From the IMG/VR virus record IMGVR_UViG_3300045988_172120, positions 1 through 38,230 of that record: a stretch of 38,230 nucleotides of DNA. The stretch is one strand, 5' to 3'. Of the stretch, positions 1 through 38,230 are shown piece by piece. This DNA is from a virus. Every line of letters begins with the position of its first letter. Positions within the stretch are counted from its first letter, which is position 1. The notes under the pieces were generated by a model that saw only the letters and a list, made by a program, of their open reading frames with translations, did no database searches and had not been told where the DNA came from. The translations under genes and the position numbers were made by a program.

Positions 1-55
1 GGAAGTGCCTAGGAGGGGCACAAATAATGAGTGACATTTTCGATATTGTGGTGGA
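1..55. repeat. Left terminal inverted repeat, 55 bp, perfect reverse complement of 38176..38230
   Basis: Bases 1-55 (ggaagtgcctaggaggggcacaaataatgagtgacattttcgatattgtggtgga) equal the reverse complement of the last 55 bases. Identity stops at position 56 (a versus c). It contains the SD AGGAGG and the ATG at 27. Confidence 0.97.
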
Positions 56-639: not shown

Positions 640-664
640 AGGGGCATAGGGTAAAGCAGAAAAG

Positions 665-683
665 ACCAACCAAAAGGGTTGGT
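665..683 (+). promoter_or_regulatory. Conserved 5-prime leader stem-loop (accaacc-aaaag-ggttggt)
   Basis: 7-bp stem read directly. The leader 666..711 aligns with 9381..9425 over ~45 nt, including the SD and ATG. Confidence 0.55.
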
Positions 684-708
684 GCCCTAAGGTTCAAGGA
701 GGACCACC

Positions 709-9244: not shown

Positions 9245-9278
9245 GCTACCTCCAAATGTTAGGGGTCAAAACTAAACT

Positions 9279-9300
9279 ATTATAGCATGCTACAACAAAA
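9279..9300 (-). promoter_or_regulatory. Late-type extended -10 promoter TTTTGTTGTAGCATGCTATAAT
   Basis: Minus-sense TGCTATAAT (extended -10), 34 nt upstream of the ATG at 9244. It is 20/22 identical to 22682..22703 and 17/22 identical to 26895..26916. Confidence 0.65.
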
Positions 9301-9326
9301 CGTGTTCAGCACCACACGGGCACGGT

Positions 9327-9354
9327 TTGACAGTAGGCGTGTGGCGCGTATAAT
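9327..9354 (+). promoter_or_regulatory. Consensus promoter TTGACA-N16-TATAAT driving the moron
   Basis: ttgaca at 9327..9332 and tataat at 9349..9354. It sits back to back with the minus-strand promoter at 9279..9300. Confidence 0.8.
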
Positions 9355-9379
9355 TAAAAGCATCAGGTTGAAGATAAAG

Positions 9380-9399
9380 CCCAACCAAAGAGTGTTGGG
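9380..9399 (+). promoter_or_regulatory. Conserved leader stem-loop (cccaac-caaagagt-gttggg), second copy
   Basis: Aligns with 665..683. The whole leader plus SD plus ATG is conserved between the two loci. Confidence 0.55.
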
Positions 9400-9422
9400 G
9401 CCTGAAGTCCAAGGAGGACACC

Positions 9423-9746
9423 ATGGCCAACATTACAATCTACCCCAACGGCATCACCGGTAAAGAATGGGTGCACCCCACCACTGGGGAAACCCGCATC
9501 TACCTCAACGACTGGCTGGAAGCCGTGGGGGTTGAACTCAGCTACTACGGCACCGGTAACATCTGCTACGCAGAGTTGGACGGCAAAAAAGTGAGCAACA
9601 ACACAGGCAAATCTTTGAAAGCCATGAAAGCCTGGATTGATGCCGATGGTGAGGTGCATGTGAAAATCAACGACCGCGCCCGCTTCTATATCAAAGAAGC
9701 TACCCTGATCGAGCGGATTAAGGAGGCACTGAAGGAAGATAAGTAA
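9423..9746 (+). CDS. Hypothetical protein, reverse-oriented moron inside the tail module
   Basis: 107-aa ORF with SD AAGGAGG, its own consensus promoter and a downstream terminator. There is no TM or signal peptide and no motif recognised. Confidence 0.85.
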   Translation: MANITIYPNGITGKEWVHPTTGETRIYLNDWLEAVGVELSYYGTGNICYAELDGKKVSNNTGKSLKAMKAWIDADGEVHVKINDRARFYIKEATLIERIKEALKEDK

Positions 9747-9775
9747 AAGCGTTCTCTCCCCTCTTCTCGCATCGT

Positions 9776-9806
9776 AAAAACACCCCCAAATATCAGGGGG
9801 TGTTTT
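9776..9806. terminator. Bidirectional intrinsic terminator (moron on plus strand, tape measure on minus strand)
   Basis: Stem acaccccc (9780..9787) / gggggtgt (9796..9803), flanked by AAAAA upstream and TTT downstream, so both strands see a stem plus a T run. Confidence 0.8.
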
Positions 9807-9831
9807 CCTTATGCCCAAACCGTAGCAGTGT

Positions 9832-9906
9832 TGCCCACCAGGGTAAACGCTGTTTAAAGCGTCTAGCGTGGCCATAGGTGGGGCCAACGCCTAGAATGAA
9901 CAATCA
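9832..9906. repeat. Conserved ~75-bp intergenic element, copy A
   Basis: Ungapped alignment with 24038..24112 gives 56/75 identities by manual count. The first 26 nt (2 mismatches) and the last 14 nt (identical) are the most conserved. Confidence 0.8.
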
Positions 9907-9965
9907 CCCCAGCCCCACCACGATAGCCCCACACAAAGCAAATGAGAGAGTGGGGCAAATCACAA

Positions 9966-12900
9966 TCAGTCCGCCTTACGCAAAGACCGCTGGAAGTCCC
10001 AAGCGTTCGGCTTCTTCTCATCCTCAATCTCACGCACACGCAAATCCAAATCCGCCTGCGACTTACTAATCTGCTCCAAAAGTGCCTTCACCTCATCGGC
10101 ACTATACGCGGTCTTATCCGAAGGCAGATTCACAGTCACAGTAGCGCGCTTATTGCCCACGCGCTCCGACTCCGCAGCCGCATGCTCAGCCTCAGCACCA
10201 GACTGACGCAAAGCCAAACGCAAATCCCGAATCGTGTCCTTATGCAAACGAAGCTCAGAATTGCGCTGCTGCTCCGTCACATCAGCCAGATGCTTCAACG
10301 CATCCACGGTCTCTTTCGAGGTGGCTTCCTGAATTTGCTTGTTAATACTAGCCAACTCAACAAGCTTACTGAGCTCCGATTTGCGCAGCTCACCAGCGGT
10401 TTTGTTGTACTCGCGTTCATTCTGCAAGTTTTGCAAACGTGACGCATAGTCATTCTGCAACGCTTCCTGACGACGCTGGAACTCTAGGTTTAAGCGCTCC
10501 ATGTCGGTTTTCATATTCTCAGCAATCGTGCCGAAAGCTGAATTAATAATCTCGGAACCAACCTTCGCCCCGCCAGTAGCCGCGTCAACACCATACCCAT
10601 TCACGCCAGCAACAGCGCCACCAGCGGCGGCGGCGCCACCAAGCAGCGTGGCCAAACCTAAGGATAGTTTCTTACCAAGCGATAAGCCCTTGAAAACCTT
10701 ACCGGTCTCATCCTTATTGGCCTTGAGTGCATGAAACCCTGTGAAAATATCACCAATGCTCTTAATCGCAGTCAGAGCACCACCCACACCGGTAGCGATA
10801 TTACCAGTGTAGAAGCCAAGCCCAGCTGATACCAGACCGCCAAGCACACCCATCAGGCCGCTAGCACCCTTCTGCAAACCCTGCAAACCCTTCTGCGCCC
10901 CAGACAAACCAGGCGTGTCAAGCCCGTACAGTTTAGCCGCCTGCACCTGCAACTTTTGCGTAGACAGTTTCAGCAGCTCAGCAGCCTTAGCCTGATTCAA
11001 AGTAGCCTCAGCAGCGGCGAACGCAGCATCCTTCGCCTGCATCATAGCGGTGTGTTGCTGAAGCGCATTCTCAGCTTGTACACGGCGAAGCTCCCACTCC
11101 GCAGCCCGAACCTGATTCGTGCGACGCTGCGCCTCACCGGCGACCGTACCCCACGCCCCAGTGCCTTTCTCAATGTACCGATCAATAGCGAAACCAAATT
11201 GATCGTACATCTGCTTGTTCGCCTCAAGCCGGGCCTTGTCCAATGCTTCAAGCGCTTTCGCCTGATTCAGCATCCCGTTTGCGCGGGTTTGCGCAAGGTT
11301 GAACTCCGCATTTCTCAGGGCGATAGCCGCCTGCGTTGCGGTAAACATCGCCTGCGTCAAATCGTACTTGAGCTTGCGAACCTCTTTACGGGTTTTCTGC
11401 ACAGTGTCGTGGGCTTCCGAAACAACCCCCGCAACCAGGGCAAACGCCCCAATCATGGTGGTGAGTTCAGTCTGTGCCGCGGTGATAAGATCACGTATTG
11501 CTTGGATACGTGCCGCCATCACAGTGCGCTCCGCAACCTCGATCTGCTTCAAGGCGTCACCGTTTTGCTTACGAACCTTAGCAAGCTTATCCTCAGCCTT
11601 ATTCAAAGCCTCAAGCTTTTTCTTCTGTTCCTCAGCATTCTTATTATCGGATTTATCAATCGAAGCCGCGGCGTCCTCACGTGCCCTAGCCAGACGCTTC
11701 TCCGCATCAGCAATCTTCTCAGCCTTATTCTTGGCCTTTGAGGATCGTGCACGGGCCAGTGCCGTTTCAGCATCCTGAATCTTCCTAGCCGACGCCGTGG
11801 AAACCTTCGCCCCTTTCGCTTCGGCTTCCTGGTATTCCTTGCGGGCTTTCTCAACCTCTTCTAAGGCTTCCTTCTCCGCCTTCGTGTTGTCCACCACTTG
11901 GCGCCGGGTTTCCGCCAAACCCTGCTCAGCATCCTGAACAATCTGCGCGGACCCCAGAAAATCGCCCTCATAGTCAGCACGGCGTTCCTCCCACTGCGAG
12001 CCGATACGCTCAACAATGGGCTCCATTTTACTGACCAAACTATCAATCGAGTTAGCCAAATGGTCAAGGCCTAGGAACTCTTGGTGAGTTAGCACACGTT
12101 CCGGCTTACCGGACAGGTTCACTGCCATACCGCCAGAAGGCAACCAACCACCATTATCATACAAGCCGGTGCCCTTAACCAGGGATAACGCCCGATCCAT
12201 TTTCGTTGCGTACCGTGTTGGGAAAGCGGACACCTGCACACCCTGCGCCACAGCACCCGGTGACATTGCCTCCCACCCCGGGAACTTCGATAGCATGGCC
12301 TTATAGAACAGGCCAGCGGATTTGTAGGGGTCCATGCGTTCCGCAAGGGTACCCCAACCGGCTTGGCGCTGCTGGAACAAACCAACCGAATCATGATCCG
12401 ACCCCACAGCATCGTGACGGAACGCCAGCGACCCGGGAACCTTAGCGTTTGCAAACATTTTCAGGGGATCGCCGGACTCCACCAAAGCGGTGGCCACACC
12501 AATCATTGCACCCTTAGAAGAAAGTGAGTAATCTTTTGCGCGCCGGGAAATTTCGTGAACGAAATAATCATGGCCCCAGCCGCTATGTTTCTTACCCTGC
12601 TGACCGTACGGCACGTCCTTATCAGGGTCAAGGGTGAGCGGGTCACCCAATTCTTTGGGTCCAGCAACCCCACTACCCGTGTACTCGTTGCCACTACCAG
12701 TAAGCGCAGTGCCCTTCTTAGTTTCCTGTAAGCCATAAAACTTCGCCAAAGCCTTATGCAGCTCAGCAGCCGACCCCCAGCCGGGGGTACCCGAACCTGT
12801 GGAATCCCCGCTACGGGTAGTTGCGACACCCGAATCCAGGGTGAACCCACCACTATCGGGGCTATAGGTGATGCCATCAATCTTGCCTGGTAGGCCGTCG

Positions 12901-15900
12901 AAACGGTCTAGGGTTTCCTCGAACTTTTCAGCAGAATACTGTGGGCCGCCACCACGCAACCTGATAAACATTGCATCAGTGAACTGGGACAGGTTAGCGC
13001 CGGCCATGCCCCCCAGTTGGCCATTACCCCGCTGGCCACCCATTTCAACAAACACACTACCGGAACCATAGTCGATTTTACCAACAGTGTGCCCACCCCA
13101 CGGGCCGCCATTGAACCACCACATGGTGAACGTGTTAGCGCCACCAACACCCCTGTGGAAACCATGAGAAGCGCCCCAGTCGCCCTGATTCCCGGTAGCA
13201 AACTTCCGGGGGAATGGGTTTATGCCAGCAGCCAGGGCAGCGAAAGCGCTCATCGCGCCGGAACAGTCGCCCCAGTTTGAGCCACCCCACACATACGGTG
13301 CCCCCTCAAGCGGGCGGGAAGCCTGATAGCCCTTCACGGAATAGCCCTGGGCAAACCTTACCAGGTCACGGCCGGTAACACCACCCTCGGCAAACTTTTG
13401 GCCCCCATAAATATTCCCGGTGTAAGTAGGTTGCACAGGCATACCAGTTGCCTTATCCTGCAAACGCATGCCAAAAATATCAGCAACCCTACTCAGGATA
13501 GCGGTAGACCGTGCCCGCTTAGCCGGGGCCAACGGAATATACGCCTCACCACCAGTTTCAGGTTCAGCCCACACGCGCCACTCGCCCGGTGCCGCAATCG
13601 TCGCAGTATGATTCTCACCACCCTTAGCAAAAGCTAAACCACCACGAGCATAGCCGACAATACCCCCATTAGCGTGACGGGACCCCTCAGTGTTGATACT
13701 AAACGCCGAAGATGCTACACTGGAAACTTTGTCCTGGATAGCGGAAACCTTCTCATCCAGCCAGTTCATGACCTTAGCGAAGCCCTCGCGCAAACCATTA
13801 AGCAAACCGGTGAAAATATTAATACCAGCGTTGACCAGCCAGGCCCCCGCTTTAGCAAAGAAATTCTTAAGCTTATCCGGGAACTCGGAAGCAAACTTCA
13901 AGCCCTTGCTAATCATCTCCGCAAGATGCGTCAGAAACTGGTTCTTCCAGCCAGTGACCGTGATAATCACCTTGGCAACACCCGCGTGGAAGCCCTGAAC
14001 AATATCCCCCCACATGTTCTTAATCTTATTCACAGCCGCATCTTTGAACGCCCCCAGCTTGTCCTTCACATTCTCCGCAAACTCATTAAACCGGTTCTTA
14101 ATGTTCTCCCCGGCCTCGCCCCAAATTTCCTTAATGTGGTCCCACATGCGGCCAAAAGCTTTGGGCACATCCTCCCAATTACCGGTCACAATATCTACCA
14201 GGGCGACGAAGAAGCCGGAAAACACTTCTTTCACGGTGTCGATGCTGGCACTGAAAATGTCCTTAACATTTTCCCAGCCTTTGCTAATAGCATCCCCGAT
14301 GATGTCCTTGAACACCCCGGCCCCGGTTTTGAGGTTTTCCCAACCCTCACTCAGCCACGTGCCCACATTGCCAGCAAAGTCTTTCACAGGCCCCGCTAGT
14401 TCGTTAAAAGTGTTGGTCACCTTATCTTTCAGTGAGGACAAGCCTTCAGTTGCTGCCTGCCATTTCTCACTAAACCACTGCCCAATATTAGCCAAGCCTT
14501 CCTTGACGCCTTCCCAAGCATTCTTAAGAAAGTCTGTGAACTCACCCCAAAGGCGTTTACCGGTTTCGGTTTGGGTGAAAAAATACACTAGGCCAGCAAC
14601 CACGGCAGCAATAGCCAAGCCCAATGCAATGAACGGGTTCATGGCCATCACTGCGTTCAACCCTGTGAAACTGCCTGTCAACCCCAGGTTAGCGGCTGTG
14701 GCTGCCAAGGTTCCGGCCCGCTGTGCGGCTAGCAGGGCAGGCATCGCCTGAAGTAAAACCATGAAATTCCTGATAGCACCAACAGCCCACACCCCGGCCT
14801 GAACCGCTTTCAGCATGGTGTACGCACCAATCACGCCACCAATCATAGCCGCAATCGTGCCCACAAGCTCATTATGCTGGCGAATCCATTCAACCGTTTT
14901 GGAAAAAGCTTCGGCAACGCTACCAACAGACTTCCCCAATTGATCCATCCACACTTCAAGATGGGGGGCGATCACCTCATAGATGCGCAATTTAGCATCT
15001 GACAAGGCGTTATCCCAGCGTTCCATGGCGCCGTTCAACCCGCCAAGCTTCGCCCCCGCGGTTTCACCAGCGGTACCAACCGCATCCATTTTTCCACGCA
15101 GATTATCAAACGCTTCAACACCACTACTAGCGGCGGTGGTGGCGAACGACACGGCTTCACGCCCGAACGCGGTTGATGCTTCGGCAAGGAACGCGGACTC
15201 ACCCATACGCTCTTGCGCATCATGCAACTGTATTGTTATTTCTCTCAGCCCAACAAACTTACCGTCAGCGTCAAACGCTTGGATACCCATGTTTTCTAGG
15301 GCTTTCGCGGCTTGCTTAGAAGGCGATGTGAGAGAAAGTAAAGCGGAACGCATAGCGGTACCCGCCATGGTGCCCTTCACGCCCTGGTTAGCAAACAAGC
15401 CAATATAGGTGTTCGTGTCTTCTAAGGAAACACCCAGGGTTGCCGCGGTAGGTGCCGCCATTTTCAGGGCCTCACCCAGATCAGTCACAGTCGTGGCAGT
15501 GTTGTTTGCAGTGTTTGCAAGAACATCCGCCACCCGTGTAGCCTGGTCCGCAGCCAAATGAAAACTGTTCAGTGCCGCAACCTGCAAATCCGCGGCGTCA
15601 CCAGCACTAATCTGCGCTGCACCGGCAAGCTGAATCGACCCCTTAGCCGCATCCATAGCCTGTGAAACATCCATGCCGCCCTTAGCCAAAGCGAGCATCG
15701 CGTCAGCAGCTGATGCTGCGGAAGTGCCAGCCAACGACTCGTCGTTACCCAAATCCTTAGCATGCTGCTTAACCTTTGCTAGCTGCTCCGCAGTCGACCC
15801 CGTGACGGCACCGAGCGACCCAAGCACACCATCGAACTCGCGGCCTTCCTTAATGGCTTCGCTCAGGAAACCCACGCCACCAGCAAGCCCCAAACCAGCA

Positions 15901-16610
15901 GCCAACAGGCCAGACACTTTCCCCAACTGCCCAAATAGGCCTGCGCCCTGGCCAGCCACACTATCAAACGTGGCCCCCAAGGATTGCATTTTTGCGGAAC
16001 CCACATCCGAGGCGTCAGCCATACGGCGCTGCGCAGCCGTCACATTATCAGCAGCGTCACTAGCCCTACCCCGGGCATTGGACAACGCGGTTTCCGCGCC
16101 CTCAAGCGCACTCACTGACCCTAATTGTTGCTGTCTAGCAGCGGAAACCTTCGCCTCAGCTTGGGCAATTTTCGCGTCCTGGTTAGCCCTAGCCGCCTCA
16201 AGTTTACGCTCCGCAGACTCCAACTGCTCCGTGGTAGCAGTACTACTATCACGCAGGGTTTGCAGCTTCGATTCAGCATCCTGAACCTTAGCATTCTGTG
16301 AGACACGCACCGATTCAAGGTTCTTCTCCGCAGCCTCAAGCCGCTTCGTGCTCGTCTCAACCTTCGCCTGGGCCTGCTCAGTTTTTTGCATAGCCTGATT
16401 GACTTTTTCCTGCGCCTGTGCTTCACGGCGTTTCGCCTGCTCAAACGCCTTAGCCGACCCATCAATGCCAAGGGTGAGCTCGGTTTGAATCTTTTTACCC
16501 GCCTTCGTTGCGGCACTATTCACAGGGTCCTCTAGATGCTTCTTGATAGCCGCATTCATGCCCCGCAACGACACCGTGATCGGCAAAGAAGCATAACCGA
16601 TAGCTGACAT
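9966..16610 (-). CDS. Tape measure protein (2214 aa) with embedded NlpC/P60 peptidase and lytic transglycosylase-like motifs
   Basis: The N-terminal third is a coiled coil, followed by TM-like segments and periodic W/F repeats. NlpC/P60 motif APYVWGGSNWGDCSG (~13262..13310) with a downstream GGHTVGK. Transglycosylase-like motif VATALVESGDP ... GLFQQR (~12170..12570). It lies downstream of the G/GT chaperones. Confidence 0.93.
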   Translation of the reverse strand: MSAIGYASLPITVSLRGMNAAIKKHLEDPVNSAATKAGKKIQTELTLGIDGSAKAFEQAKRREAQAQEKVNQAMQKTEQAQAKVETSTKRLEAAEKNLESVRVSQNAKVQDAESKLQTLRDSSTATTEQLESAERKLEAARANQDAKIAQAEAKVSAARQQQLGSVSALEGAETALSNARGRASDAADNVTAAQRRMADASDVGSAKMQSLGATFDSVAGQGAGLFGQLGKVSGLLAAGLGLAGGVGFLSEAIKEGREFDGVLGSLGAVTGSTAEQLAKVKQHAKDLGNDESLAGTSAASAADAMLALAKGGMDVSQAMDAAKGSIQLAGAAQISAGDAADLQVAALNSFHLAADQATRVADVLANTANNTATTVTDLGEALKMAAPTAATLGVSLEDTNTYIGLFANQGVKGTMAGTAMRSALLSLTSPSKQAAKALENMGIQAFDADGKFVGLREITIQLHDAQERMGESAFLAEASTAFGREAVSFATTAASSGVEAFDNLRGKMDAVGTAGETAGAKLGGLNGAMERWDNALSDAKLRIYEVIAPHLEVWMDQLGKSVGSVAEAFSKTVEWIRQHNELVGTIAAMIGGVIGAYTMLKAVQAGVWAVGAIRNFMVLLQAMPALLAAQRAGTLAATAANLGLTGSFTGLNAVMAMNPFIALGLAIAAVVAGLVYFFTQTETGKRLWGEFTDFLKNAWEGVKEGLANIGQWFSEKWQAATEGLSSLKDKVTNTFNELAGPVKDFAGNVGTWLSEGWENLKTGAGVFKDIIGDAISKGWENVKDIFSASIDTVKEVFSGFFVALVDIVTGNWEDVPKAFGRMWDHIKEIWGEAGENIKNRFNEFAENVKDKLGAFKDAAVNKIKNMWGDIVQGFHAGVAKVIITVTGWKNQFLTHLAEMISKGLKFASEFPDKLKNFFAKAGAWLVNAGINIFTGLLNGLREGFAKVMNWLDEKVSAIQDKVSSVASSAFSINTEGSRHANGGIVGYARGGLAFAKGGENHTATIAAPGEWRVWAEPETGGEAYIPLAPAKRARSTAILSRVADIFGMRLQDKATGMPVQPTYTGNIYGGQKFAEGGVTGRDLVRFAQGYSVKGYQASRPLEGAPYVWGGSNWGDCSGAMSAFAALAAGINPFPRKFATGNQGDWGASHGFHRGVGGANTFTMWWFNGGPWGGHTVGKIDYGSGSVFVEMGGQRGNGQLGGMAGANLSQFTDAMFIRLRGGGPQYSAEKFEETLDRFDGLPGKIDGITYSPDSGGFTLDSGVATTRSGDSTGSGTPGWGSAAELHKALAKFYGLQETKKGTALTGSGNEYTGSGVAGPKELGDPLTLDPDKDVPYGQQGKKHSGWGHDYFVHEISRRAKDYSLSSKGAMIGVATALVESGDPLKMFANAKVPGSLAFRHDAVGSDHDSVGLFQQRQAGWGTLAERMDPYKSAGLFYKAMLSKFPGWEAMSPGAVAQGVQVSAFPTRYATKMDRALSLVKGTGLYDNGGWLPSGGMAVNLSGKPERVLTHQEFLGLDHLANSIDSLVSKMEPIVERIGSQWEERRADYEGDFLGSAQIVQDAEQGLAETRRQVVDNTKAEKEALEEVEKARKEYQEAEAKGAKVSTASARKIQDAETALARARSSKAKNKAEKIADAEKRLARAREDAAASIDKSDNKNAEEQKKKLEALNKAEDKLAKVRKQNGDALKQIEVAERTVMAARIQAIRDLITAAQTELTTMIGAFALVAGVVSEAHDTVQKTRKEVRKLKYDLTQAMFTATQAAIALRNAEFNLAQTRANGMLNQAKALEALDKARLEANKQMYDQFGFAIDRYIEKGTGAWGTVAGEAQRRTNQVRAAEWELRRVQAENALQQHTAMMQAKDAAFAAAEATLNQAKAAELLKLSTQKLQVQAAKLYGLDTPGLSGAQKGLQGLQKGASGLMGVLGGLVSAGLGFYTGNIATGVGGALTAIKSIGDIFTGFHALKANKDETGKVFKGLSLGKKLSLGLATLLGGAAAAGGAVAGVNGYGVDAATGGAKVGSEIINSAFGTIAENMKTDMERLNLEFQRRQEALQNDYASRLQNLQNEREYNKTAGELRKSELSKLVELASINKQIQEATSKETVDALKHLADVTEQQRNSELRLHKDTIRDLRLALRQSGAEAEHAAAESERVGNKRATVTVNLPSDKTAYSADEVKALLEQISKSQADLDLRVREIEDEKKPNAWDFQRSLRKAD

Positions 16611-16642: not shown

Positions 16643-16676
16643 AAAAAAGGCGGGGCAAACCAGTGGCCTGCCCCGC
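16643..16676 (-). terminator. Strong intrinsic terminator between the chaperone genes and the tape measure start
   Basis: Minus sense reads gcggggca-N11-tgccccgc followed by cttttttaa: an 8-bp GC-rich stem and a T6 tract. Confidence 0.75.
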
Positions 16677-17380: not shown

Positions 17381-17421
17381 AAAAATGAAAAGTGGGGGCG
17401 TCTTGGTGTTGGGTGCGCCCC
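17381..17421 (-). terminator. Intrinsic terminator after the major tail protein gene
   Basis: Minus sense reads ggggcg-N15-cgcccc followed by acttttcattttt. Confidence 0.6.
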
Positions 17422-17501: not shown

Positions 17502-18377
17502 TTACGGCGTATCCTCAACCGTGATCTGGCCAGTCGTGCCCTCAAGGTGGCTCACAGCAGCAAGGATACCCTCGAAGGACTTAACCGTGAAGCCCGCGGC
17601 CTTGGTACCAGAAACAACAGCTTCCTCACCGCCCGCAATCTCACGCAAAGCCTCCTGAACCTTCGCTGCATCGGCATCGTGTGCCAGTTCCTTGGTTTCA
17701 TTGTAGTTGATGCGCAGATTCCAGGTACCGCCAGTAGCCCCGGCGGGAAGCTTAACAATCTTCTCAGCCTTCGGCAAAGTATTAGTGAACCGCTCCAGGT
17801 CAATAATTTCCTGCTTCTCATCAGGCACAAAGTCCAGCTTCTCAAACACTGCCTTGAAAGTATCCGGTAGCACGTTGATCTCAATCTCAGTACCGGAAGC
17901 TTCTTGGCCCTTGCTCAGGTTCTCGCCCTTAGCCGCGGTACGGGTGCGGGACGCCAGAATACGGTGCGAGCCGTCGTTAAACTCGTACTCCACAGCAACG
18001 AACGGGCGGGCAAGCTTAGCGCTGTGCAAAAGAATCTCAGCCCCATCAATCCGCTTCGACAGGGTAGTGCCCCGTGTGCGGTCCGGCCACAGCACGGATT
18101 GCACAGCATCATTCTCTTCAAGAACCAAAACCTTAAGAACCACCGAACCCGGCTTACCAGTAACAGCCACCGTGCCCATGCCCAGGCCCTTGGTTTCCTG
18201 AATCTCCATCGCCCGGTTCAAATCAATTTCTTGGTCATCCTTAAGAATACCCAAAGTCATCCAAGTGTGATCCAGCACACCATTCTTGCTCACCTTCGGA
18301 TCATCAGCATAACTGATGTACACCACCGCATCTGTGATCGTTTTCACGTTTTGCGGGTCGCGTTGCTTAATGCTCAT
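17502..18377 (-). CDS. Major tail protein
   Basis: 291-aa ORF directly upstream of the G/GT chaperones and followed by a terminator, which is typical for a highly expressed tail tube gene. Confidence 0.8.
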   Translation of the reverse strand: MSIKQRDPQNVKTITDAVVYISYADDPKVSKNGVLDHTWMTLGILKDDQEIDLNRAMEIQETKGLGMGTVAVTGKPGSVVLKVLVLEENDAVQSVLWPDRTRGTTLSKRIDGAEILLHSAKLARPFVAVEYEFNDGSHRILASRTRTAAKGENLSKGQEASGTEIEINVLPDTFKAVFEKLDFVPDEKQEIIDLERFTNTLPKAEKIVKLPAGATGGTWNLRINYNETKELAHDADAAKVQEALREIAGGEEAVVSGTKAAGFTVKSFEGILAAVSHLEGTTGQITVEDTP

Positions 18378-22674: not shown

Positions 22675-22681
22675 GCGGAAT

Positions 22682-22703
22682 ATTATAACATACTACAACA
22701 AAA
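22682..22703 (-). promoter_or_regulatory. Late-type extended -10 promoter TTTTGTTGTAGTATGTTATAAT, 7 nt from the protease ATG
   Basis: The TGTTATAAT box ends 7 nt before the ATG at 22674, a leaderless geometry. The motif overlaps the last portal codons. Confidence 0.6.
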
Positions 22704-24006
22704 CATCACCCTCGCCATTGTCAATATTATTAGTTTCAGTGTCACCGGACCAAGGGATTTGCATTTTACGGTGAAAATATTTCCGGGTCACGGGATCGTT
22801 CGGATCAACCAAACCCGCCGCAACGGCGTTAGGCCACATCTCAGGTTTTAGTTCACTGTTTGATGCGATGGGGTCGCAGTTGATGAGGGGTACGGGGCCT
22901 TTGTAATCGGGGAATGCTAGGCTTATCAAATCCTCAACAATATATTTTTGCGCTGTCAACGCCACCCAGTCCGCAATGGTTTGCAACGATTGCGTGAAGA
23001 ATGATGATTGTGTGTCCGCCAAAGCGTATGATCCGCCACCATCATCGAGGTTTAGAAAGTGTGCTAGCACGCTTTTGGCGATAGCATCATTGTATGATTT
23101 GATAGCGCCGGAAACATCCGGTAGTTGGCCGGAAACCCCTTTGAACTCGAATGACGCGCCGGGCGGGATTGACACCCCAGCAAAATCATCGGCACGGATA
23201 GCCTCAACTAATTCTTGGCCCCTATCAATCTCGTCTTGCAAATCCTCCGGGCGGCCCAACAGGGTTTCTTTCGATGCGGTGTAGACGGGTATGCCCATGC
23301 CGTTTCTCTCAAGGGTTTTTAATTGTAGCCGTTGCAGTTCGTCTTTGAGTCGCCAAGGTCGATAGCAGGGGCGTAGAATGCTTGTGCCCATCCAGTCGCT
23401 GTTTGTGGGCCTGTAGACGTATCCTACCAGGCTATCAACGGGGATCACGGGGGCAAGGTCGGTGCCGTCTTCCAATCGTACACTCTTTTGCTGAATGGAT
23501 TCTAAGTTACCGTTCTCATCTACATTGATTTTTGAGATGGTGTCAGCCCACCTTGGGGCGAGTTTCACCAGGTGCCAACCGGTTTCGTCTTGTTCGTACA
23601 CTTGTTCAAAGTATGCGAAGCCGAACACCAACGCCAATAGCGCTTGTGGCAGGTGTTCTTGCCATGAAACCCCGCTAGAAAGCCTGGTCACGGGGGGTGA
23701 GTCCACACCAAGAATGGGTAGCTTAAGGTCTTGCGCTACCCGATTCACAACCTCAGGATCAGCCCCGTTCGAATCAATGTGCCACTTGGCACGCAGCACC
23801 GGAAGCGTGCAAGCAGAGTACGCCATTGAGACTTGTTCATCTTCCTTAAGCATTTTATTATAAACCGCGATGTTACGAGGGAACCGTAAGTCGTGGTTCG
23901 TGTCGTTCATCCGCTGGTACCCATGATACCCCCCTGTGGGGGTGGCGGTGCCGATTTCCTTTGTTCGTTTCGGCTTGAACTTTGCAAAGAATTTTCGTAG
24001 CCCCAT
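22693..24006 (-). CDS. Portal protein
   Basis: 437 aa, positioned between the large terminase and the protease. Confidence 0.8.
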   Translation of the reverse strand: MGLRKFFAKFKPKRTKEIGTATPTGGYHGYQRMNDTNHDLRFPRNIAVYNKMLKEDEQVSMAYSACTLPVLRAKWHIDSNGADPEVVNRVAQDLKLPILGVDSPPVTRLSSGVSWQEHLPQALLALVFGFAYFEQVYEQDETGWHLVKLAPRWADTISKINVDENGNLESIQQKSVRLEDGTDLAPVIPVDSLVGYVYRPTNSDWMGTSILRPCYRPWRLKDELQRLQLKTLERNGMGIPVYTASKETLLGRPEDLQDEIDRGQELVEAIRADDFAGVSIPPGASFEFKGVSGQLPDVSGAIKSYNDAIAKSVLAHFLNLDDGGGSYALADTQSSFFTQSLQTIADWVALTAQKYIVEDLISLAFPDYKGPVPLINCDPIASNSELKPEMWPNAVAAGLVDPNDPVTRKYFHRKMQIPWSGDTETNNIDNGEGDVLL

Positions 24007-24037
24007 TATTTCCTATTAACCTTTCAAGTAGTAAACC

Positions 24038-24112
24038 TGCCCACCAGGGCAAACGCCGTTTAAGCCATGTAGCAGCCCCATAGACGGGGTGAGCATTAAG
24101 AATGAACAATCA
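24038..24112. repeat. Conserved ~75-bp intergenic element, copy B
   Basis: Lies in the 159-bp untranslated gap between the TerL stop (24166) and the portal start (24006). It aligns with 9832..9906. Confidence 0.8.
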
Positions 24113-24165
24113 TATAGGCCATGACCAGATAGGCTGTCACACGGCAAACTATGGCGTGACCAAAA

Positions 24166-25725
24166 TCACAAACCACGACGCTTACGCGAAATACGCATCC
24201 TAACCTTAGGGGCACGCCGAACATCCACCTCAGCAGGCTTATAATCCGCAGCCAACAACAGCGCAAACGTTGCAGCAATGATAGGGCACCCAGCCGGATT
24301 ATTCCGCTTCAACGCCTTACCCGAATCCTGAATATCCCTCTCAGAAACCACCGACAGGGCATCAACCCAACGCGAAGACCCATCATGCTTGATCTTCCCA
24401 TCACGCCACAATTGCATAAACAACATATAGGCTTTGGAAACCTCAGTCTTATTAAACCTCGTGGGCTCCAAACCCCGCTGCTCAAACAACACCGTGCACG
24501 TCTCCGCAACACCCTTCTGGTCATAAGCAAACCCAATCGGGTCACGAAGCCCAATCACCCGCTCAATATCACCAACAACCCCCACACGGTCAAACTCATC
24601 ACGGGGGGCAAGGGACAAAAACCATCTCCCATCAGCCATTTTCTCCACGCTTACAAGCGCGCAGCCAACAGCCCCCAAGTCAACATCAATGCCAACAGCA
24701 GACACAGCCCCGACACTACACAGTACGGGATCAGCCACTGTAGCAGCTTCCCAATCGGAATAATCAATAATTGGTGTAAAGTCTTCATCGTCTTCATCAT
24801 TGAACCAGTCGCCCCAACCCAGGCATTCGACACCAAAATTGATCCTACCAATCTCAGTGTTGAGTCGTTTCATTTGTTTTCTAATCTTCGTCTCATCCAT
24901 GATGAACCCGTACGATGGGTTCGCCAGGATCCAGGTTTCTTCAACATCAGGTTTAGCATCACCAGGCGCACGGTATTCTGCCAGGTAGATAGGGTCAACA
25001 GGGTCAGGCCCCGCCAACGCTTGACGCCTCATTGCCGAAATGACCCTGCCGTCCTGGTGGGCTTTGAAAGCCTTATGAACGGCTGAGGTAATATAGAAAA
25101 ACTGCGGATCATCCGCCGCCTGCGTAGTGAAGTTAATAGCCGCCACCGAACCATCAGTCAGGTTATAGGCCTCATCATAGACAACACATGATATTTTCGT
25201 GATACCACGGGCCGTATCATCACCCCGGGTTTGAAAAAAAATCACCCCGCCACACGAAAACTCAAGCACACCCTTGCCCTGCGAACCTGAAAAACGCGTA
25301 AGCATACCAGCCAGCGGGGGGAACGCTTTCACAACCCCAAGCAAATTCAAATAAATACTATTAGCCGTATCCCACAGCTGGGCCGTGTATAGTATGCGCC
25401 AACCGTATTTTATGGCACGATAAAGGCAGATAAGAGAAATGCCCAAACTCTTACCATTCTGCCTAGGAATGATAAGAATGTTGTCAGAGTGAACGTACCG
25501 GCCCACCTCATTCCTGCTGCACATGGCCAAAATATCGTACTCCTGCCACGGCATCAACTCCACCCCAATAATCTTAGCGAAAGCAATAATCTCCCTACCC
25601 TCGCCATGATCGTATGCGGGGGCCTCGCGCAAATTATACGGTGTTTGTTTACCCCTTAAAGTTTTGTGAGCCGATGATTTCGGAAAAGGCTCTCTCTTTA
25701 CCATCGACATAGTAGCTGTCACCAT
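24166..25725 (-). CDS. terL: Terminase large subunit
   Basis: Walker A-like IIPRQNGKS, Walker B-like VVYDEA, a C-terminal nuclease-like region, ~519 aa. The exact start is uncertain (ATG at 25725, 25710 or 25704). It overlaps the TerS ORF by 56-77 nt. Confidence 0.88.
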   Translation of the reverse strand: MVTATMSMVKREPFPKSSAHKTLRGKQTPYNLREAPAYDHGEGREIIAFAKIIGVELMPWQEYDILAMCSRNEVGRYVHSDNILIIPRQNGKSLGISLICLYRAIKYGWRILYTAQLWDTANSIYLNLLGVVKAFPPLAGMLTRFSGSQGKGVLEFSCGGVIFFQTRGDDTARGITKISCVVYDEAYNLTDGSVAAINFTTQAADDPQFFYITSAVHKAFKAHQDGRVISAMRRQALAGPDPVDPIYLAEYRAPGDAKPDVEETWILANPSYGFIMDETKIRKQMKRLNTEIGRINFGVECLGWGDWFNDEDDEDFTPIIDYSDWEAATVADPVLCSVGAVSAVGIDVDLGAVGCALVSVEKMADGRWFLSLAPRDEFDRVGVVGDIERVIGLRDPIGFAYDQKGVAETCTVLFEQRGLEPTRFNKTEVSKAYMLFMQLWRDGKIKHDGSSRWVDALSVVSERDIQDSGKALKRNNPAGCPIIAATFALLLAADYKPAEVDVRRAPKVRMRISRKRRGL

Positions 25726-26113
25726 TATCTTTTTCTTGCCTTATCTGTTTCACAGCATTGATGCGGTGCCGTTCCACATCGTTAATCGTTTTGCGGAACA
25801 AGTCTTCTTGGTTGCGAATCTCCCCCATCAAGGAATCCACGACAACAATGTAGCGGGGTAGCTCGTCATCCTCATCATCAATGTTGTTGGCGTTTTTCTT
25901 AGGTTTTTCTTCCTCAACTTGCTTCACCACACCCCGCACAATCTTGCCGTACTCGCGTTTCAAACGGTCGATTCGGTCGCGTTGTCGGCATGCGATAATG
26001 ATAAGATTTTCCATACTCACGGACTTGGGTTCTTCCCGGTAGGAATCATAAACGAACCTGCCCCCAGACAGCCAATCCTCGGGATATTCCTTACCATCAT
26101 ATATTCTGGCCAT
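25649..26113 (-). CDS. terS: Probable terminase small subunit
   Basis: 154 aa with SD GAGAGG, immediately upstream of TerL. The central region is charged and coiled-coil-like. The call rests on synteny. Confidence 0.55.
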   Translation of the reverse strand: MARIYDGKEYPEDWLSGGRFVYDSYREEPKSVSMENLIIIACRQRDRIDRLKREYGKIVRGVVKQVEEEKPKKNANNIDDEDDELPRYIVVVDSLMGEIRNQEDLFRKTINDVERHRINAVKQIRQEKDNGDSYYVDGKERAFSEIIGSQNFKG

Positions 26114-26132: not shown

Positions 26133-26846
26133 CTAGCCCCAAAAACCTGAACCGCCACCACCATCAGGGGCGACAGTCGCGGGTTTCTTACGCATACTCT
26201 CATAGTATTTATCAACACCAAACATGAATGATTTCGGGCGCAGGCGAGCACACCGCTCACGAACAATCGCCTCACCAGGATCAATACGCTTGAACTCGCA
26301 CCCGGCTTCCGCATAGCGCAACAACGCTGATTCGCTGGGGGCGGAGTGAATAATATACACATCCGTCTCGGACTGTTTCAAAGCTTCCTTAATAAGTAGC
26401 AGTCTAGCTTTCCTCACCAGTCTTGCCACCACTTGCGGGTAATCATGATTACCGATAGGGTAGCCGCCAATAAGGTTGCATAGATGGTCATAGTCAATCC
26501 TTATATCCCCGGGTTTCGCATGCTCACTAACCCACGTGGTTTTACCCCCACACGGGGGGCCCATCACAACAATCTTCCGAACCGAACCGGTAGTAACCTC
26601 ACCCCCGCCACGCTGACTGTTGCAAGTGAAATGCAACAAGCGTTCCGGTAGCTCACCATTCTTTGCCCCATGAAAATTTAGGTGGTCAGCAGCCAACGGC
26701 TTACCGTCAAAATTTTTCACAGCAGAAGCATACATTGGCCTGCCACACCACGGGCACGGGGTACCATCACGCAAACGAAGCAACAAACCCTCACGGGCAC
26801 GCTGGTGCATCTTACCATAGCCCCTAGCGCTAGCTGATAAACCCAT
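26133..26846 (-). CDS. HNH endonuclease fused to a P-loop NTPase/kinase-like domain
   Basis: N-terminus: GYGKMHQRARE ... CPWCGRPM ... ADHLNFH ... LLHFTCNSQRGGG (HNH). C-terminus: VVMGPPCGGKTTW (Walker A) ... DVYIIHS (Walker B-like). Confidence 0.75.
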   Translation of the reverse strand: MGLSASARGYGKMHQRAREGLLLRLRDGTPCPWCGRPMYASAVKNFDGKPLAADHLNFHGAKNGELPERLLHFTCNSQRGGGEVTTGSVRKIVVMGPPCGGKTTWVSEHAKPGDIRIDYDHLCNLIGGYPIGNHDYPQVVARLVRKARLLLIKEALKQSETDVYIIHSAPSESALLRYAEAGCEFKRIDPGEAIVRERCARLRPKSFMFGVDKYYESMRKKPATVAPDGGGGSGFWG

Positions 26847-26852
26847 AAAAAT

Positions 26853-26894
26853 ATTCCCCTAAAAAGCGTTTAAACAAACAATTTTCAGGGGAAT
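26853..26894 (-). promoter_or_regulatory. 8-bp inverted repeat attcccct / aggggaat forming a terminator-like hairpin in front of the HNH gene
   Basis: Minus sense reads ATTCCCCT-N26-AGGGGAAT followed by atttttATG. The left arm starts directly after the TATAAT of the promoter at 26895..26916. Confidence 0.5.
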
Positions 26895-26916
26895 ATTATA
26901 TCACGTCACAACAAAA
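26895..26916 (-). promoter_or_regulatory. Late-type extended -10 promoter TTTTGTTGTGACGTGATATAAT
   Basis: TGATATAAT extended -10 box. It shares the TTTTGTTGT box and TATAATATTCC with 22682..22703 and lies upstream of the HNH/terminase genes. Confidence 0.55.
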
Positions 26917-26918
26917 TA

Positions 26919-37856: not shown

Positions 37857-38204
37857 CTAAAACTCTCCTTCCTCATCATAGCAGTGGTCTTCCAGCCATT
37901 CCATGGCAGCATCCTCAAACATGCTCTTGATTAACCATAGTTTGCCACCCAAAATTTTGTCGATCTGCTCACGCTCATCCCATTTTTCCAACTCCAGAAT
38001 TTCGCCGCTGGGAAGATGCTCGATGGTCAGGCCAAGATCGTATTCATCGAGGATTCCGGTTGCCCAGATGAGAATTTCGTAATCCCCGACCGTGCGAGTC
38101 CAGGATAAGCGTATCCCTTCCTCGATGTCAGTTTCCACTGGTGCGGTTTCCCAGCCGTCCATGGTGAGGTTGACGTCCACCACAATATCGAAAATGTCAC
38201 TCAT
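37857..38204 (-). CDS. Hypothetical highly acidic protein (right end gene, N-terminus MSDIFDIVV shared with left end gene)
   Basis: 115-aa ORF. SD and the first 9 codons lie in the ITR. Roughly a quarter of residues are D/E by manual count. Confidence 0.8.
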   Translation of the reverse strand: MSDIFDIVVDVNLTMDGWETAPVETDIEEGIRLSWTRTVGDYEILIWATGILDEYDLGLTIEHLPSGEILELEKWDEREQIDKILGGKLWLIKSMFEDAAMEWLEDHCYDEEGEF

Positions 38205-38230
38205 TATTTGTGCCCCTCCTAGGCACTTCC
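38176..38230. repeat. Right terminal inverted repeat, partner of 1..55
   Basis: Read directly: tccaccacaatatcgaaaatgtcactcattatttgtgcccctcctaggcacttcc is the reverse complement of 1..55. Confidence 0.97.

What the first reader, a model, noticed from the sequence alone, without database searches (positions are those of the whole stretch)
9832..9906. A ~75-bp structured intergenic element present twice in the late operon (copy A 9832..9906, copy B 24038..24112)
Plus-strand copy A is tgcccaccagggtaaacgctgtttaaagcgtctagcgtggccataggtggggccaacgcctagaatgaacaatca. Copy B is tgcccaccagggcaaacgccgtttaagccatgtagcagccccatagacggggtgagcattaagaatgaacaatca. They have the same length and 56/75 identities ungapped by manual count. 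The first 26 nt are nearly invariant and the last 14 nt are identical. Both copies sit in untranslated gaps immediately downstream (minus sense) of large genes: TerL, in an unusually long 159-bp gap before the portal gene, and the tape measure. Both keep a TGCCC-ACCA-GGGCA hairpin (GGGTA in copy A) and an AAAC-GCY-GTTT hairpin whose only difference is in the loop. The divergent centre retains a 4-bp GC stem built from different bases (ggcc..ggcc against cccc..gggg), which hints at compensatory change. Copy A ends 25 nt before the intrinsic terminator at 9776..9806, and the late operon contains further terminators downstream of copy B. One testable idea is a cis-acting RNA of the processive-antitermination type, by analogy with the HK022 put sites. 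Alternatives are an RNase processing site, a protein-binding site or a small mobile insertion. I know of no described element with this sequence.
Basis: partly seen in the sequence, partly recalled or inferred. Interest (0 to 1): 0.65.

Follow-up and report, generated by a model that had tools for sequence, protein, structure and literature searches.

The report
Duplicated conserved non-coding spacer in phage
A 160-base non-coding sequence sits right after two large late genes (terminase and tape measure) of a human oral actinobacterial phage. Every relative keeps both copies with exactly the same length and the same short sequence blocks, so it is almost certainly functional, but it matches no known element and its job is not yet known.

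Summary
The two copies are about 160 nt each: 9821-9981 and 24027-24187, both on the minus strand, which is the mRNA sense. Each starts about 16 nt inside the end of TMP or TerL. A versus B is a 153-nt ungapped match (E=1e-15).

All roughly 25 related ~38-kb phages in IMG/VR and oral metagenomes carry both copies, giving 29 distinct sequences. There are no indels in the 134-nt core in 86/86 copies. 54 of 152 aligned columns are invariant, separated by near-neutral linkers.

More distant relatives, including Corynebacterium phage CL31, have TerL and portal 3-12 nt apart or overlapping. The element is therefore a lineage-specific acquisition.

It is not coding, not a tRNA and not an Rfam family. 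It is not found elsewhere in genomes, plasmids or GenBank phages.

A conserved fold is not supported. Only two tiny hairpins persist: AAAC/GUUU and CCC-UGGU-GGG.

Best guess, at low confidence: a sense-strand signal on the late transcript, read as sequence blocks at fixed spacing by a protein, that controls transcript fate at two operon junctions. It is not put-like and not a nut member.

The parts
9821..9981 (-). Copy A, full element (alignment columns 1-161; column n = window 9982-n). It begins about 16 nt inside the 3' end of the tape-measure gene (stop at 9966-9968) and ends about 15 nt before the terminator.
   Evidence: nhmmer profile hit 9981-9821, 144 bits; extended A/B alignment; 14 distinct orthologues downstream of TMP in related phages
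24027..24187 (-). Copy B, full element (column n = window 24188-n). It begins inside the last codons of TerL and fills the 159-nt TerL-portal gap up to about 21 nt before the portal ATG (24006).
   Evidence: nhmmer hit 24187-24027, 149 bits; 15 distinct orthologues upstream of portal
9957..9965 (-). Invariant block TTGTGATTT (columns 17-25), copy A. Its TGA is a second in-frame stop 6 nt after the TMP stop.
   Evidence: Invariant in 29/29 distinct copies; only two exact occurrences in the window
24163..24171 (-). Invariant block TTGTGATTT, copy B. It contains the TerL stop codon TGA (24166-24168).
9894..9907 (-). Conserved A/U-rich block GTGATTGTTCATTC (columns 75-88), copy A.
   Evidence: Invariant or >=90% conserved in most columns; unique to the two elements in the window
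24100..24113 (-). Conserved A/U-rich block (A)TGATTGTTCATTC, copy B.
9864..9883 (-).
   Evidence: Invariant columns listed; the helix 99-102/109-112 is paired in only 67% of cells
24070..24089 (-). Central region, copy B (cccc..gggg stem, loop GTCTAT).
9845..9855 (-). Small hairpin II, AAAC-NNN-GUUU (columns 127-137), copy A.
   Evidence: Paired in 96.6% of cells; one compensatory C-G to U-A (L036) and one allele that breaks two pairs (L054/L057)
24051..24061 (-). Small hairpin II, copy B.
9832..9844 (-). Small hairpin III, (G)CCC-UGGU-GGG(C)A (columns 138-150), copy A, inside the near-invariant block CCTGGTGGGCA (columns 140-150; 8 of 11 columns invariant, 3 at >=90%).
   Evidence: 3-bp core always pairable. 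Three independent transitions give G.U pairs in the mRNA sense only (L048, L088, L018). The outer pair is broken in 8/29 copies
24038..24050 (-). Small hairpin III, copy B.
9776..9806 (.). Bidirectional intrinsic terminator. It also ends the convergent plus-strand gene 9423-9746.
   Evidence: Terminator scan, minus strand 9799-9783 with T-run; sequence
16650..16676 (-). Strong intrinsic terminator (12-bp stem plus T-run) directly upstream of the TMP start, 7.4 kb downstream of copy B. Relevant only to the antitermination reading.

Best explanation
SHOWN. The element is a ~160-nt non-coding module acquired by one lineage of human oral actinobacterial (Corynebacterium-like) siphophages. It is present twice, co-oriented with transcription, and fused to the 3' ends of TerL and the tape-measure gene. 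Both copies are old paralogues evolving independently. They are under purifying selection for about a dozen short primary-sequence blocks (TTGTGATTT, CAC, GTTTG, GTGATTGTTCATTC, CC.C..CTA..G....GCTA, TAAAC, CCTGGTGGGCA, CTAC) and for exact spacing. The linkers between the blocks drift at a near-neutral rate.

INFERRED. It acts in cis on the late transcript, in the sense strand, as a recognition platform read as linear A/U-rich boxes plus two tiny hairpins (AAAC/GUUU and CCC-UGGU-GGG) by one or more proteins. In layout this resembles a nut site, and it does not resemble a self-folding put RNA.

The job I consider most likely is to modify what happens to the elongating polymerase or transcript at two operon junctions. 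That would mean anti-termination or anti-polarity across the terminators that follow each copy (9799-9783 just after A; 17421-17381 and 16676-16650 after B), so that the single ~33-kb co-directional gene array is read through late in infection.

My rough split is as follows. About 0.5 that it is an RNA-level, protein-read cis element of some kind. Within that, about half for readthrough control and about half for processing or stability.
For: Real, conserved and selected: 29 distinct copies in about 25 phages; 54/152 columns invariant across both paralogues. The core is 134 nt in 86/86 copies, while the adjacent 30-nt flanks vary between 30 and 32 nt. Own-genome A-B identity is 0.68, cross-genome 0.69, A-A 0.81 and B-B 0.85. 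Linker diversity (pi 0.13-0.27) is at or above that of the flanking coding DNA.

Lineage-specific gain: relatives with 40-46% TerL identity, and phage CL31, have TerL-portal gaps of 3-12 nt or an overlap, and a different TerL C-terminus.

Not coding: no 3-nt periodicity, syn:nonsyn about 1:3 in every frame, stops present.

Sense-strand nucleic-acid reading: both copies are co-oriented with the genes. Hairpin III tolerates three independent transitions only as G.U in the mRNA sense. Hairpin II has one compensatory C-G to U-A.

Context for readthrough: copy A lies about 15 nt (25 nt from the 75-nt core) before an intrinsic terminator, with essential tail and lysis genes beyond it. A 12-bp terminator sits immediately before TMP, downstream of copy B. 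All genes from 38204 to 4974 are co-directional.

Layout: a linear box, a ~7-nt spacer and a GCCC...GGGC hairpin recall lambda boxA-spacer-boxB (sequences in PMC2724277).
Against: No direct evidence of any RNA-level activity. The strand inference rests on 3-4 substitutions and one compensatory cell.

Covariation is not above the shuffle control. Strict length with block conservation fits a DNA-protein architecture equally well.

The boxA-like stretch (columns 121-128) is variable exactly where boxA should be conserved. The hairpin loop is UGGU, not a GNRA-like pentaloop. No N-, Q- or NusG-like protein was found by Pfam in the window.

The genes beyond terminator 9799-9783 have their own strong promoter-like site (9308-9279; 10/12 matches plus an extended -10). 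A repeat of the same 24-nt promoter-like sequence lies at 22681-22704, between copy B and the next terminators (D14). Antitermination is therefore not obviously needed.

The copies are 2.7 kb and 12.7 kb downstream of the nearest promoter-like sites, unlike nut and put.
Confidence: 0.27

Rival explanations
1. RNA processing or stability module. The conserved A/U-rich single-stranded boxes are endonuclease sites (RNase E/J type). The flanking G+C-rich hairpins, whose sequence is free to vary, protect the new ends. This uncouples the amounts of TerL or TMP mRNA from the neighbouring cistrons, as the repeated RNase III sites do in T7.
For: Intercistronic or 3'-UTR position directly after two long ORFs. 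Individual copies fold stably (mean -54 kcal/mol for 146 nt) but with different structures (SCI 0.13-0.45), as expected if any hairpin will do. A/U-rich blocks are conserved while G+C-rich linkers vary.
Against: A processing site does not explain the absolute ban on indels over 134 nt, or the invariant G+C-rich blocks (CCTGGTGGGCA, CC.C..CTA). Copy A already has a terminator hairpin about 15 nt away to protect the 3' end. Copy B's fold is not more stable than shuffles (z = -0.2 to -0.8).
Confidence: 0.22
2. DNA-level nucleoprotein site. Several protein-binding boxes at fixed helical spacing, for example for a phage or host DNA-binding protein that organises, replicates (lagging-strand or single-strand initiation signal), pauses or protects the genome. 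It occurs twice in direct orientation, flanking the portal-to-TMP module.
For: Exact length conservation with block conservation and no covariation is the classic signature of phased protein-binding DNA. The conservation profile has weak ~10- and ~20-nt periodicities (nominal 0-0.002 of shuffles). The invariant CCTGGTGG resembles a Chi-type octamer (E. coli GCTGGTGG; from my own knowledge, not tested).
Against: The periodicity does not survive correction over all periods (observed 1.82 versus 1.96 for the 95% maximum of the null). The G.U-only substitutions in hairpin III, and the fusion of both copies to stop codons in the transcribed sense, point to a single-strand or RNA reading. No candidate DNA-binding partner was identified. 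Only two sites exist in the genome.
Confidence: 0.2
3. Relic of a small mobile or illegitimately recombined insertion (MITE-like, or a 3'-end cassette) with no present function for the phage, retained because it is harmless.
For: Absent from more distant relatives, where TerL and portal abut. Both copies replace the last codons of their host gene and bring an in-frame stop, as insertions into 3' ends do.
Against: No terminal inverted repeats, no target-site duplications, and no further copies in the phage, in 185,579 species genomes, in IMG/VR, in JGI metagenomes or in plasmids. 54 invariant columns and zero indels in old, independently evolving paralogues, next to near-neutral linkers, demand purifying selection. 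An origin as an insertion is likely. Present neutrality is not.
Confidence: 0.08
4. Self-sufficient folded antiterminator RNA of the HK022 put type, or a trans-acting small RNA cut out of the late transcript.
For: Two similar copies in one phage, each upstream of terminators. Copy A plus its terminator would make a ~190-nt 3'-UTR-derived RNA.
Against: No conserved two-stem fold, low SCI and no covariation. Not promoter-proximal. Copy B has no terminator or other defined 3' end. No Rfam match even at E<=10.
Confidence: 0.08

Closest known systems
Lambda-type nut sites (boxA - spacer - boxB; N/Nus-dependent processive antitermination)
   Same: Two paralogous copies per phage, acting (if at all) in the transcript sense. 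The layout is a linear box followed after ~7 nt by a short G+C hairpin whose stem letters (GCCC...GGGC) happen to equal those of lambda boxB. Conservation is of primary sequence rather than of a large fold. Terminators lie downstream.
   Different: The boxA consensus CGCUCUU(U)A is not conserved here (columns 120-124 vary freely). The hairpin has a 3-4 bp stem with an invariant UGGU tetraloop, not a 5-bp stem with a GNRA-like pentaloop. The element is 160 nt with many further blocks. It lies deep in or at the end of late transcription units, not after early promoters. No N-like protein was found. The host is an actinobacterium.
HK022 putL/putR RNA (factor-independent antitermination)
   Same: Two similar copies in one phage genome; cis-acting in the transcript sense (proposed); terminators downstream.
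   Different: put is ~70 nt, forms two long stem-loops whose fold is essential, and sits at or within 270 nt of the early promoters (PMC9378689). Here there is no conserved fold or covariation, the length is 160 nt, and the copies are kilobases from promoters.
T7 RNase III processing sites (repeated intercistronic hairpins in polycistronic phage mRNA)
   Same: Repeated, sequence-related, non-coding elements placed just after genes in long phage transcripts. A plausible role is setting mRNA ends and stability.
   Different: T7 sites are single ~60-nt irregular hairpins with conserved structure. Here the long helices are not conserved, only two copies exist, and the length is rigidly fixed.
Actinobacteriophage intergenic repeats (cluster A stoperators; cluster K start-associated sequences)
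   Same: Short conserved asymmetric sequences in intergenic gaps, oriented with transcription, in phages of Actinobacteria (from my own knowledge).
   Different: Those are 13-17 bp and occur 10-30 times per genome, at promoters, at stops or just before start codons. This is a 160-nt composite present twice, with no further copies of any block.
MITE-like or small mobile insertions in phages (e.g. mycobacteriophage MPME)
   Same: Lineage-specific insertion between genes that abut in relatives. It supplies the stop codon of the upstream gene.
   Different: No inverted ends, no target duplication, no ORF, no dispersed copies, fixed at two orthologous sites, and under purifying selection.

Membership tests
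HK022 put RNA | About 70 nt folding into two long stem-loops whose pairing is conserved | tested here: not met
   RNAalifold consensus of only -11.6 kcal/mol. SCI 0.13-0.18 for A+B. Covariation equals shuffles, and the central helix is paired in 67% of cells.
HK022 put RNA | Located at or shortly downstream of the early promoters | tested here: not met
   Copies lie after TerL and after TMP, about 2.7 kb and 12.7 kb downstream of the nearest promoter-like repeats at 26894-26917 and 22681-22704.
HK022 put RNA | Acts on RNA polymerase (beta' zinc-binding domain) without protein factors | not testable with these tools
   Needs in vitro transcription.
Lambda-type nut site | boxA consensus CGCUCUU(U)A conserved | tested here: not met
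   The best candidate (columns 121-128) reads CGCUUUAA in 3 alleles but GCCC, GGCA, UACC and others elsewhere. Only UAAAC (126-130) is conserved. Consensus taken from PMC2724277.
Lambda-type nut site | boxB hairpin: 5-bp stem with a GNRA-like pentaloop bound by an arginine-rich N protein | tested here: not met
   The hairpin is a 3-4 bp stem with an invariant UGGU tetraloop. No N-like protein by Pfam in the window, though many ORFs have no hit.
Intrinsic terminator | G+C-rich hairpin followed directly by a U-run | tested here: not met
   No G+C-rich hairpin with a following U-run lies inside either element. The only candidate is a weak 5-bp stem (3 G-C pairs) spanning the TerL stop at 24189-24173. 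The terminator at 9799-9783 lies outside copy A.
Small protein-coding gene or read-through extension | Open frame with third-position variation and an excess of synonymous change | tested here: not met
   Entropy by codon position is flat or inverted in all frames; syn:nonsyn about 1:3; stops in some copies of every frame.
MITE or other non-autonomous transposon | Terminal inverted repeats, target-site duplication, dispersed copies | tested here: not met
   No inverted ends (sequence). Only two copies at fixed orthologous sites. The pattern is absent from 185,579 species genomes except one chance hit inside a gene, and from other contexts in IMG/VR and JGI metagenomes.
Any Rfam 15 family, tRNA or tmRNA | Covariance-model or ARAGORN match | tested here: not met
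   No gathering-score hit in the window. At E<=10 there are only two sub-threshold hits: RsaE (9740-9808), which lies outside the element, and the rimP leader (9742-9835), which reaches only its last 15 nt. Both centre on the terminator region. No tRNA.
Sigma-70/SigA-type promoter | -35 and -10 hexamers conserved at 16-18 nt spacing | tested here: not met
   The only candidate is on the plus strand, TGGCCA-17-TAGAAT in copy A. Its -35 and the -11 position vary among homologues (AGGAAT, GGGAAT, ACAAAT). There is no sense-strand candidate.

The most novel reading that the evidence does not exclude
The element is the first example of a new kind of operon-junction signal in actinobacteriophages. 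It would be a 134-nt, length-locked array of short sequence boxes with almost no helices. It would load a phage or host factor onto the elongation complex, or be read as single-stranded or duplex DNA. In doing so it would govern readthrough, processing or replication of a 33-kb co-directional gene array. This mechanism would be unrelated in sequence and architecture to nut, put, EAR or ops.
Probability: 0.15. Interest if true: 0.7.

Novelty: new variant of a known kind. Interest (0 to 1): 0.42.

Why it matters
Control of late transcription is essentially uncharted in phages of Corynebacterium-like oral Actinobacteria. This element is a clean test object. It consists of two independently evolving copies with an unusually sharp selection signature (invariant boxes, zero indels, neutral linkers). 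It lies at the two classic module boundaries (terminase | head-tail | tail tip-lysis), each followed by terminators. If it proves to be a factor-loading or antitermination site, it would add a new architecture to a very short list (nut, put, EAR, ops). If it is a DNA-level site, it would point to an unknown genome-organising protein. If it is merely a processing site, it is ordinary. Either way the element is a precise marker for this phage lineage in oral metagenomes.

Tried and rejected
1. Small ORF or stop-codon readthrough. The frame following the TerL stop is open for 46 codons in most B copies, and a TTG-initiated frame is open in 28/29 copies. But there is no codon periodicity or synonymous excess, and some copies carry stops.

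2. Conserved global RNA fold on either strand. RNAalifold, SCI and column-shuffle z-scores are weak. A and B are predicted to fold differently.

3. Naive all-against-all covariation. It is dominated by the A-versus-B split and is uninformative.

4. It is not maintained.

5. Internal tandem half-repeat (TGATTGT...GTTTGCC...TGGTGGG twice). Mean z is about 1, not significant.

6. Promoter on either strand. The key positions are not conserved.

7. Rho-utilisation site. C is not greater than G.

8. Helical (10-nt) periodicity of conservation. Suggestive, but not significant after correction.

9. Concerted evolution or recent gene conversion as the source of A/B similarity. Rejected, although local allele swapping between loci exists, for example the B-like centre in the A copy of L053.

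10. Further copies or other contexts. None in the window, distant relatives, IMG/VR, metagenomes, species genomes, plasmids or GenBank phages.

11. An RBS relic at the 3' end of copy A. The A-run there is simply the complement of the plus-strand terminator's T-run.

12. T-box, tRNA 3'-end mimicry, CRISPR-repeat mimicry and sso/CS-6 resemblance. These were noticed from memory only. Rfam does not support T-box, and the others could not be tested because the host is unknown.

Full report
**Observation**

The repeat is longer than reported.

- A self-BLAST gives a 153-nt ungapped alignment (9832-9984 versus 24038-24190, 64.7% identity, E=1.2e-15; the next hit has E=0.002).
- A profile built from homologues finds exactly two copies in the window, 9821-9981 and 24027-24187, both on the minus strand.

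I describe the element in the sense of the genes (the minus strand). Alignment column n corresponds to window 9982-n for copy A and 24188-n for copy B. The unit starts about 16 nt inside the coding regions, with a shared GCGYAAG (Arg-Lys codons). It then runs through an invariant TTGTGATTT.

**Setting**

The window is most of a ~38-kb siphophage genome from human oral metagenomes.

- PHROG and Pfam hits identify an HNH/terS-like gene, terS, TerL (24166-25725), portal (22693-24006), a Mu-like protease, capsid and tail genes, a 2214-aa tape measure (9966-16610), minor tail proteins and an endolysin. All are on the minus strand.
- Upstream on the same strand lie the ERF, SSB, DnaB and RusA genes.
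- TerL's nearest named relatives are Corynebacterium and Rhodococcus prophages. The nearest isolate is Corynebacterium phage CL31, at 39.7% identity.
- Copy B fills the 159-nt TerL-portal gap.
- Copy A is the 3' UTR of TMP. Its 75-nt core ends 25 nt, and the full element about 15 nt, before a bidirectional terminator (9776-9806). That terminator also ends a convergent, moron-like plus-strand gene.

**Relatives**

DNA-pattern and protein-anchored scans of IMG/VR and metagenomes recovered the element only from close relatives of this phage (portal and TMP 94-100% identical in protein).

- It is always at the same two loci, and both copies are present wherever the contig covers both.
- This gives 29 distinct sequences, 14 of type A and 15 of type B.
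- The 23-nt pattern hit only one of 185,579 species genomes, by chance and inside a gene.
- GenBank phages and PLSDB plasmids gave nothing. A literature string search gave nothing relevant.
- Relatives at 40-46% TerL identity, and CL31, have TerL and portal 3-12 nt apart or overlapping. Their TerL C-terminus is different and longer.

The element is therefore a lineage-specific acquisition that replaced the last codons of its host genes.

**Selection signature**

- Across the 29 sequences, 54 of 152 columns are invariant and 21 more are at least 90% conserved.
- The conserved columns group into these blocks: TTGTGATTT (17-25), CAC (30-32), GTTTG (39-43), GTGATTGTTCATTC (75-88), CC.C..CTA..G....GCTA (99-118), TAAAC (126-130), CCTGGTGGGCA (140-150) and CTAC (157-160).
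- The linkers are as diverse as, or more diverse than, the flanking coding DNA (pi up to 0.27). They occur as recombining alleles.
- There is not one indel. The distance from TTGTGATTT to GGGCA is 134 nt in 86/86 copies. The 30 nt just downstream vary in length at both loci.
- A-B identity is the same within a genome (0.68) as between genomes (0.69). A-A is 0.81 and B-B is 0.85.

The duplication therefore predates the radiation of these phages and the copies evolve independently. The shared blocks reflect purifying selection, not recent copying. This refutes 'recent duplicated junk'.

**What it is not**

- *Not coding.* There is no 3-nt periodicity and no synonymous excess in any frame, and some copies carry stops.
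- *Not a known RNA.* There are no Rfam hits at gathering score. At E<=10 there are only two sub-threshold hits centred on the terminator region next to copy A, one of which reaches the last 15 nt of the element. There is no tRNA or tmRNA.
- *Not a promoter, terminator or rut site.* The -35 and -11 positions of the only candidate are not conserved, and C is not greater than G.
- *Not a MITE.* It has no inverted ends and no dispersed copies.
- *Not a tandem of two half-units*.

**Structure**

This is not upheld.

- The RNAalifold consensus is only -11.6 kcal/mol over 163 columns.
- The structure conservation index is 0.13 (mRNA sense) and 0.18 (plus sense) for A+B, and 0.36-0.45 within a type.
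- Single sequences fold stably but differently.
- In a formal count of the five small helices that can be drawn, the covariation score (0.040) equals the shuffle control (0.037; 82/500 shuffles reach it). There is a single compensatory cell.
Half of the A copies carry CGCC or GCCC on the 3' side.

What survives are two tiny hairpins.

- *AAAC-NNN-GUUU* is paired in 96.6% of cells. It has one C-G to U-A double change and one allele that breaks it.
- *(G)CCC-UGGU-GGG(C)* keeps its 3-bp core and its loop.

In the second hairpin, three independent transitions (L048, L088, L018) keep pairing only as G.U in the mRNA sense. One change, in the window's own copy A, goes the other way on the dispensable outer pair. 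This is weak evidence that the sense strand is read as RNA or single-stranded DNA.

**Mechanism**

*Shown:* an old, duplicated, non-coding, sense-oriented module under selection for sequence boxes and exact spacing, at two operon junctions.

*Inferred:* it is a recognition platform for protein(s).

I favour an RNA-level cis role, at about 0.5 overall, for three reasons: the co-orientation with transcription, the fusion to stop codons, and the G.U pattern.

Within that, I commit at low confidence (0.27) to control of readthrough in a nut-like, factor-dependent manner. The reasons are:

- Each copy precedes intrinsic terminators. The terminator 9799-9783 lies about 15 nt after copy A. The strong 16676-16650 terminator (plus 17421-17381) lies after copy B, directly before TMP.
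- All genes from 38204 to 4974 form one co-directional array.
- The 3' part has a box-spacer-hairpin layout.

Against this:

- boxA is not conserved, the hairpin is not boxB-like, and no N-, Q- or NusG-like protein was detected.
- Promoter-like repeats (TGCTATAAT, at 9278-9301, 22681-22704 and 26894-26917) could make readthrough unnecessary.

An RNA processing or stability site (0.22) and a DNA-level phased protein-binding site (0.20) are nearly as likely. The second best explains the ban on indels together with the lack of covariation. Its supporting ~10/20-nt periodicity is only nominally significant. A functionless relic and a put-like or small-RNA role are each unlikely (about 0.08).

**Comparison with known systems**

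The element fails the membership tests for put, nut, intrinsic terminators, Rfam families, MITEs, promoters and small ORFs (see the table). In general kind it resembles repeated cis-acting junction elements of phage operons, such as nut, put and the T7 RNase III sites. It differs from all of them in architecture.

**Verdict**

The element is new to the databases and is clearly selected, but its function is undetermined. Interest is moderate (0.42). It would be high only if experiments show a new mode of transcript or genome control.

Noticed in passing
window 1-55 and 38176-38230; L125 1-127; L132 4790-4909: The window ends in a perfect 55-nt inverted repeat. A MEGAHIT k=127 contig of the same phage extends each end by 72 nt, so the overlap equals the assembler's k. 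The true inverted repeat is about 125 nt. It contains a TGTGTATAATG promoter-like site, a leader hairpin, an RBS and the identical first 10 codons of the two outermost genes. The genome is probably circular or permuted, with a divergent control region lying outside the window. It is not a true linear ITR genome.
   Followed up: partly
window 9278-9301, 22681-22704, 26894-26917 (minus strand): A 24-nt repeat, GTTTTGTTGTAGCATGCTATAATA, with an extended -10 (TGCTATAAT) sits in front of the HNH/terS gene, the protease gene and the minor-tail genes. These are likely three internal late-region promoters.
   Followed up: partly
window 661-704 and 9376-9419 (plus strand): A 44-nt repeat, made of a hairpin (CCAACC...GGTTGG) plus AAGGAGGAC, lies immediately before the start codons of plus-strand genes 709-1194 and 9423-9746. 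It is a start-associated element shared by an early gene and the moron.
   Followed up: no
window 9423-9746 (+) with promoter-like 9327-9354 and terminator 9776-9806: A convergent 107-aa gene of unknown function sits between TMP and the minor tail genes. It has a perfect TTGACA-16-TATAAT promoter and a bidirectional terminator, which is a moron-like cassette. It is present in all relatives examined.
   Followed up: partly
window 16650-16676 and 17381-17421 (minus strand): A strong intrinsic terminator (12-bp stem, T-run) lies directly between the tail-chaperone genes and the TMP start. A second hairpin with a T-run follows the gene 17502-18377. TMP expression must depend on readthrough, or on the weak promoter-like site overlapping the terminator (16658-16629).
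   Followed up: partly
window 26133-26846 (-): One ORF combines an N-terminal HNH endonuclease domain with a terS-like C-terminal part. It is followed by a second terS-like gene (25649-26113). A 22-nt inverted repeat (26850-26897) lies just upstream and is a candidate cos/pac region.
   Followed up: no
window 24169-24198 (TerL C-terminus): The last ~9 residues of TerL (MRISRKRRGL) have no counterpart in relatives. The final Arg-Lys codons are shared at DNA level with the end of TMP, so the element supplied the C-terminal tail and stop of both genes.
   Followed up: yes
L132 1-4880 (IMGVR_UViG_3300007794_000016, 43.4 kb): One relative's contig continues ~4.9 kb beyond the window's right end with sequence unrelated to the window, including a DNA-methylase fragment. 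This is either the missing control region or a chimeric or host junction.
   Followed up: partly
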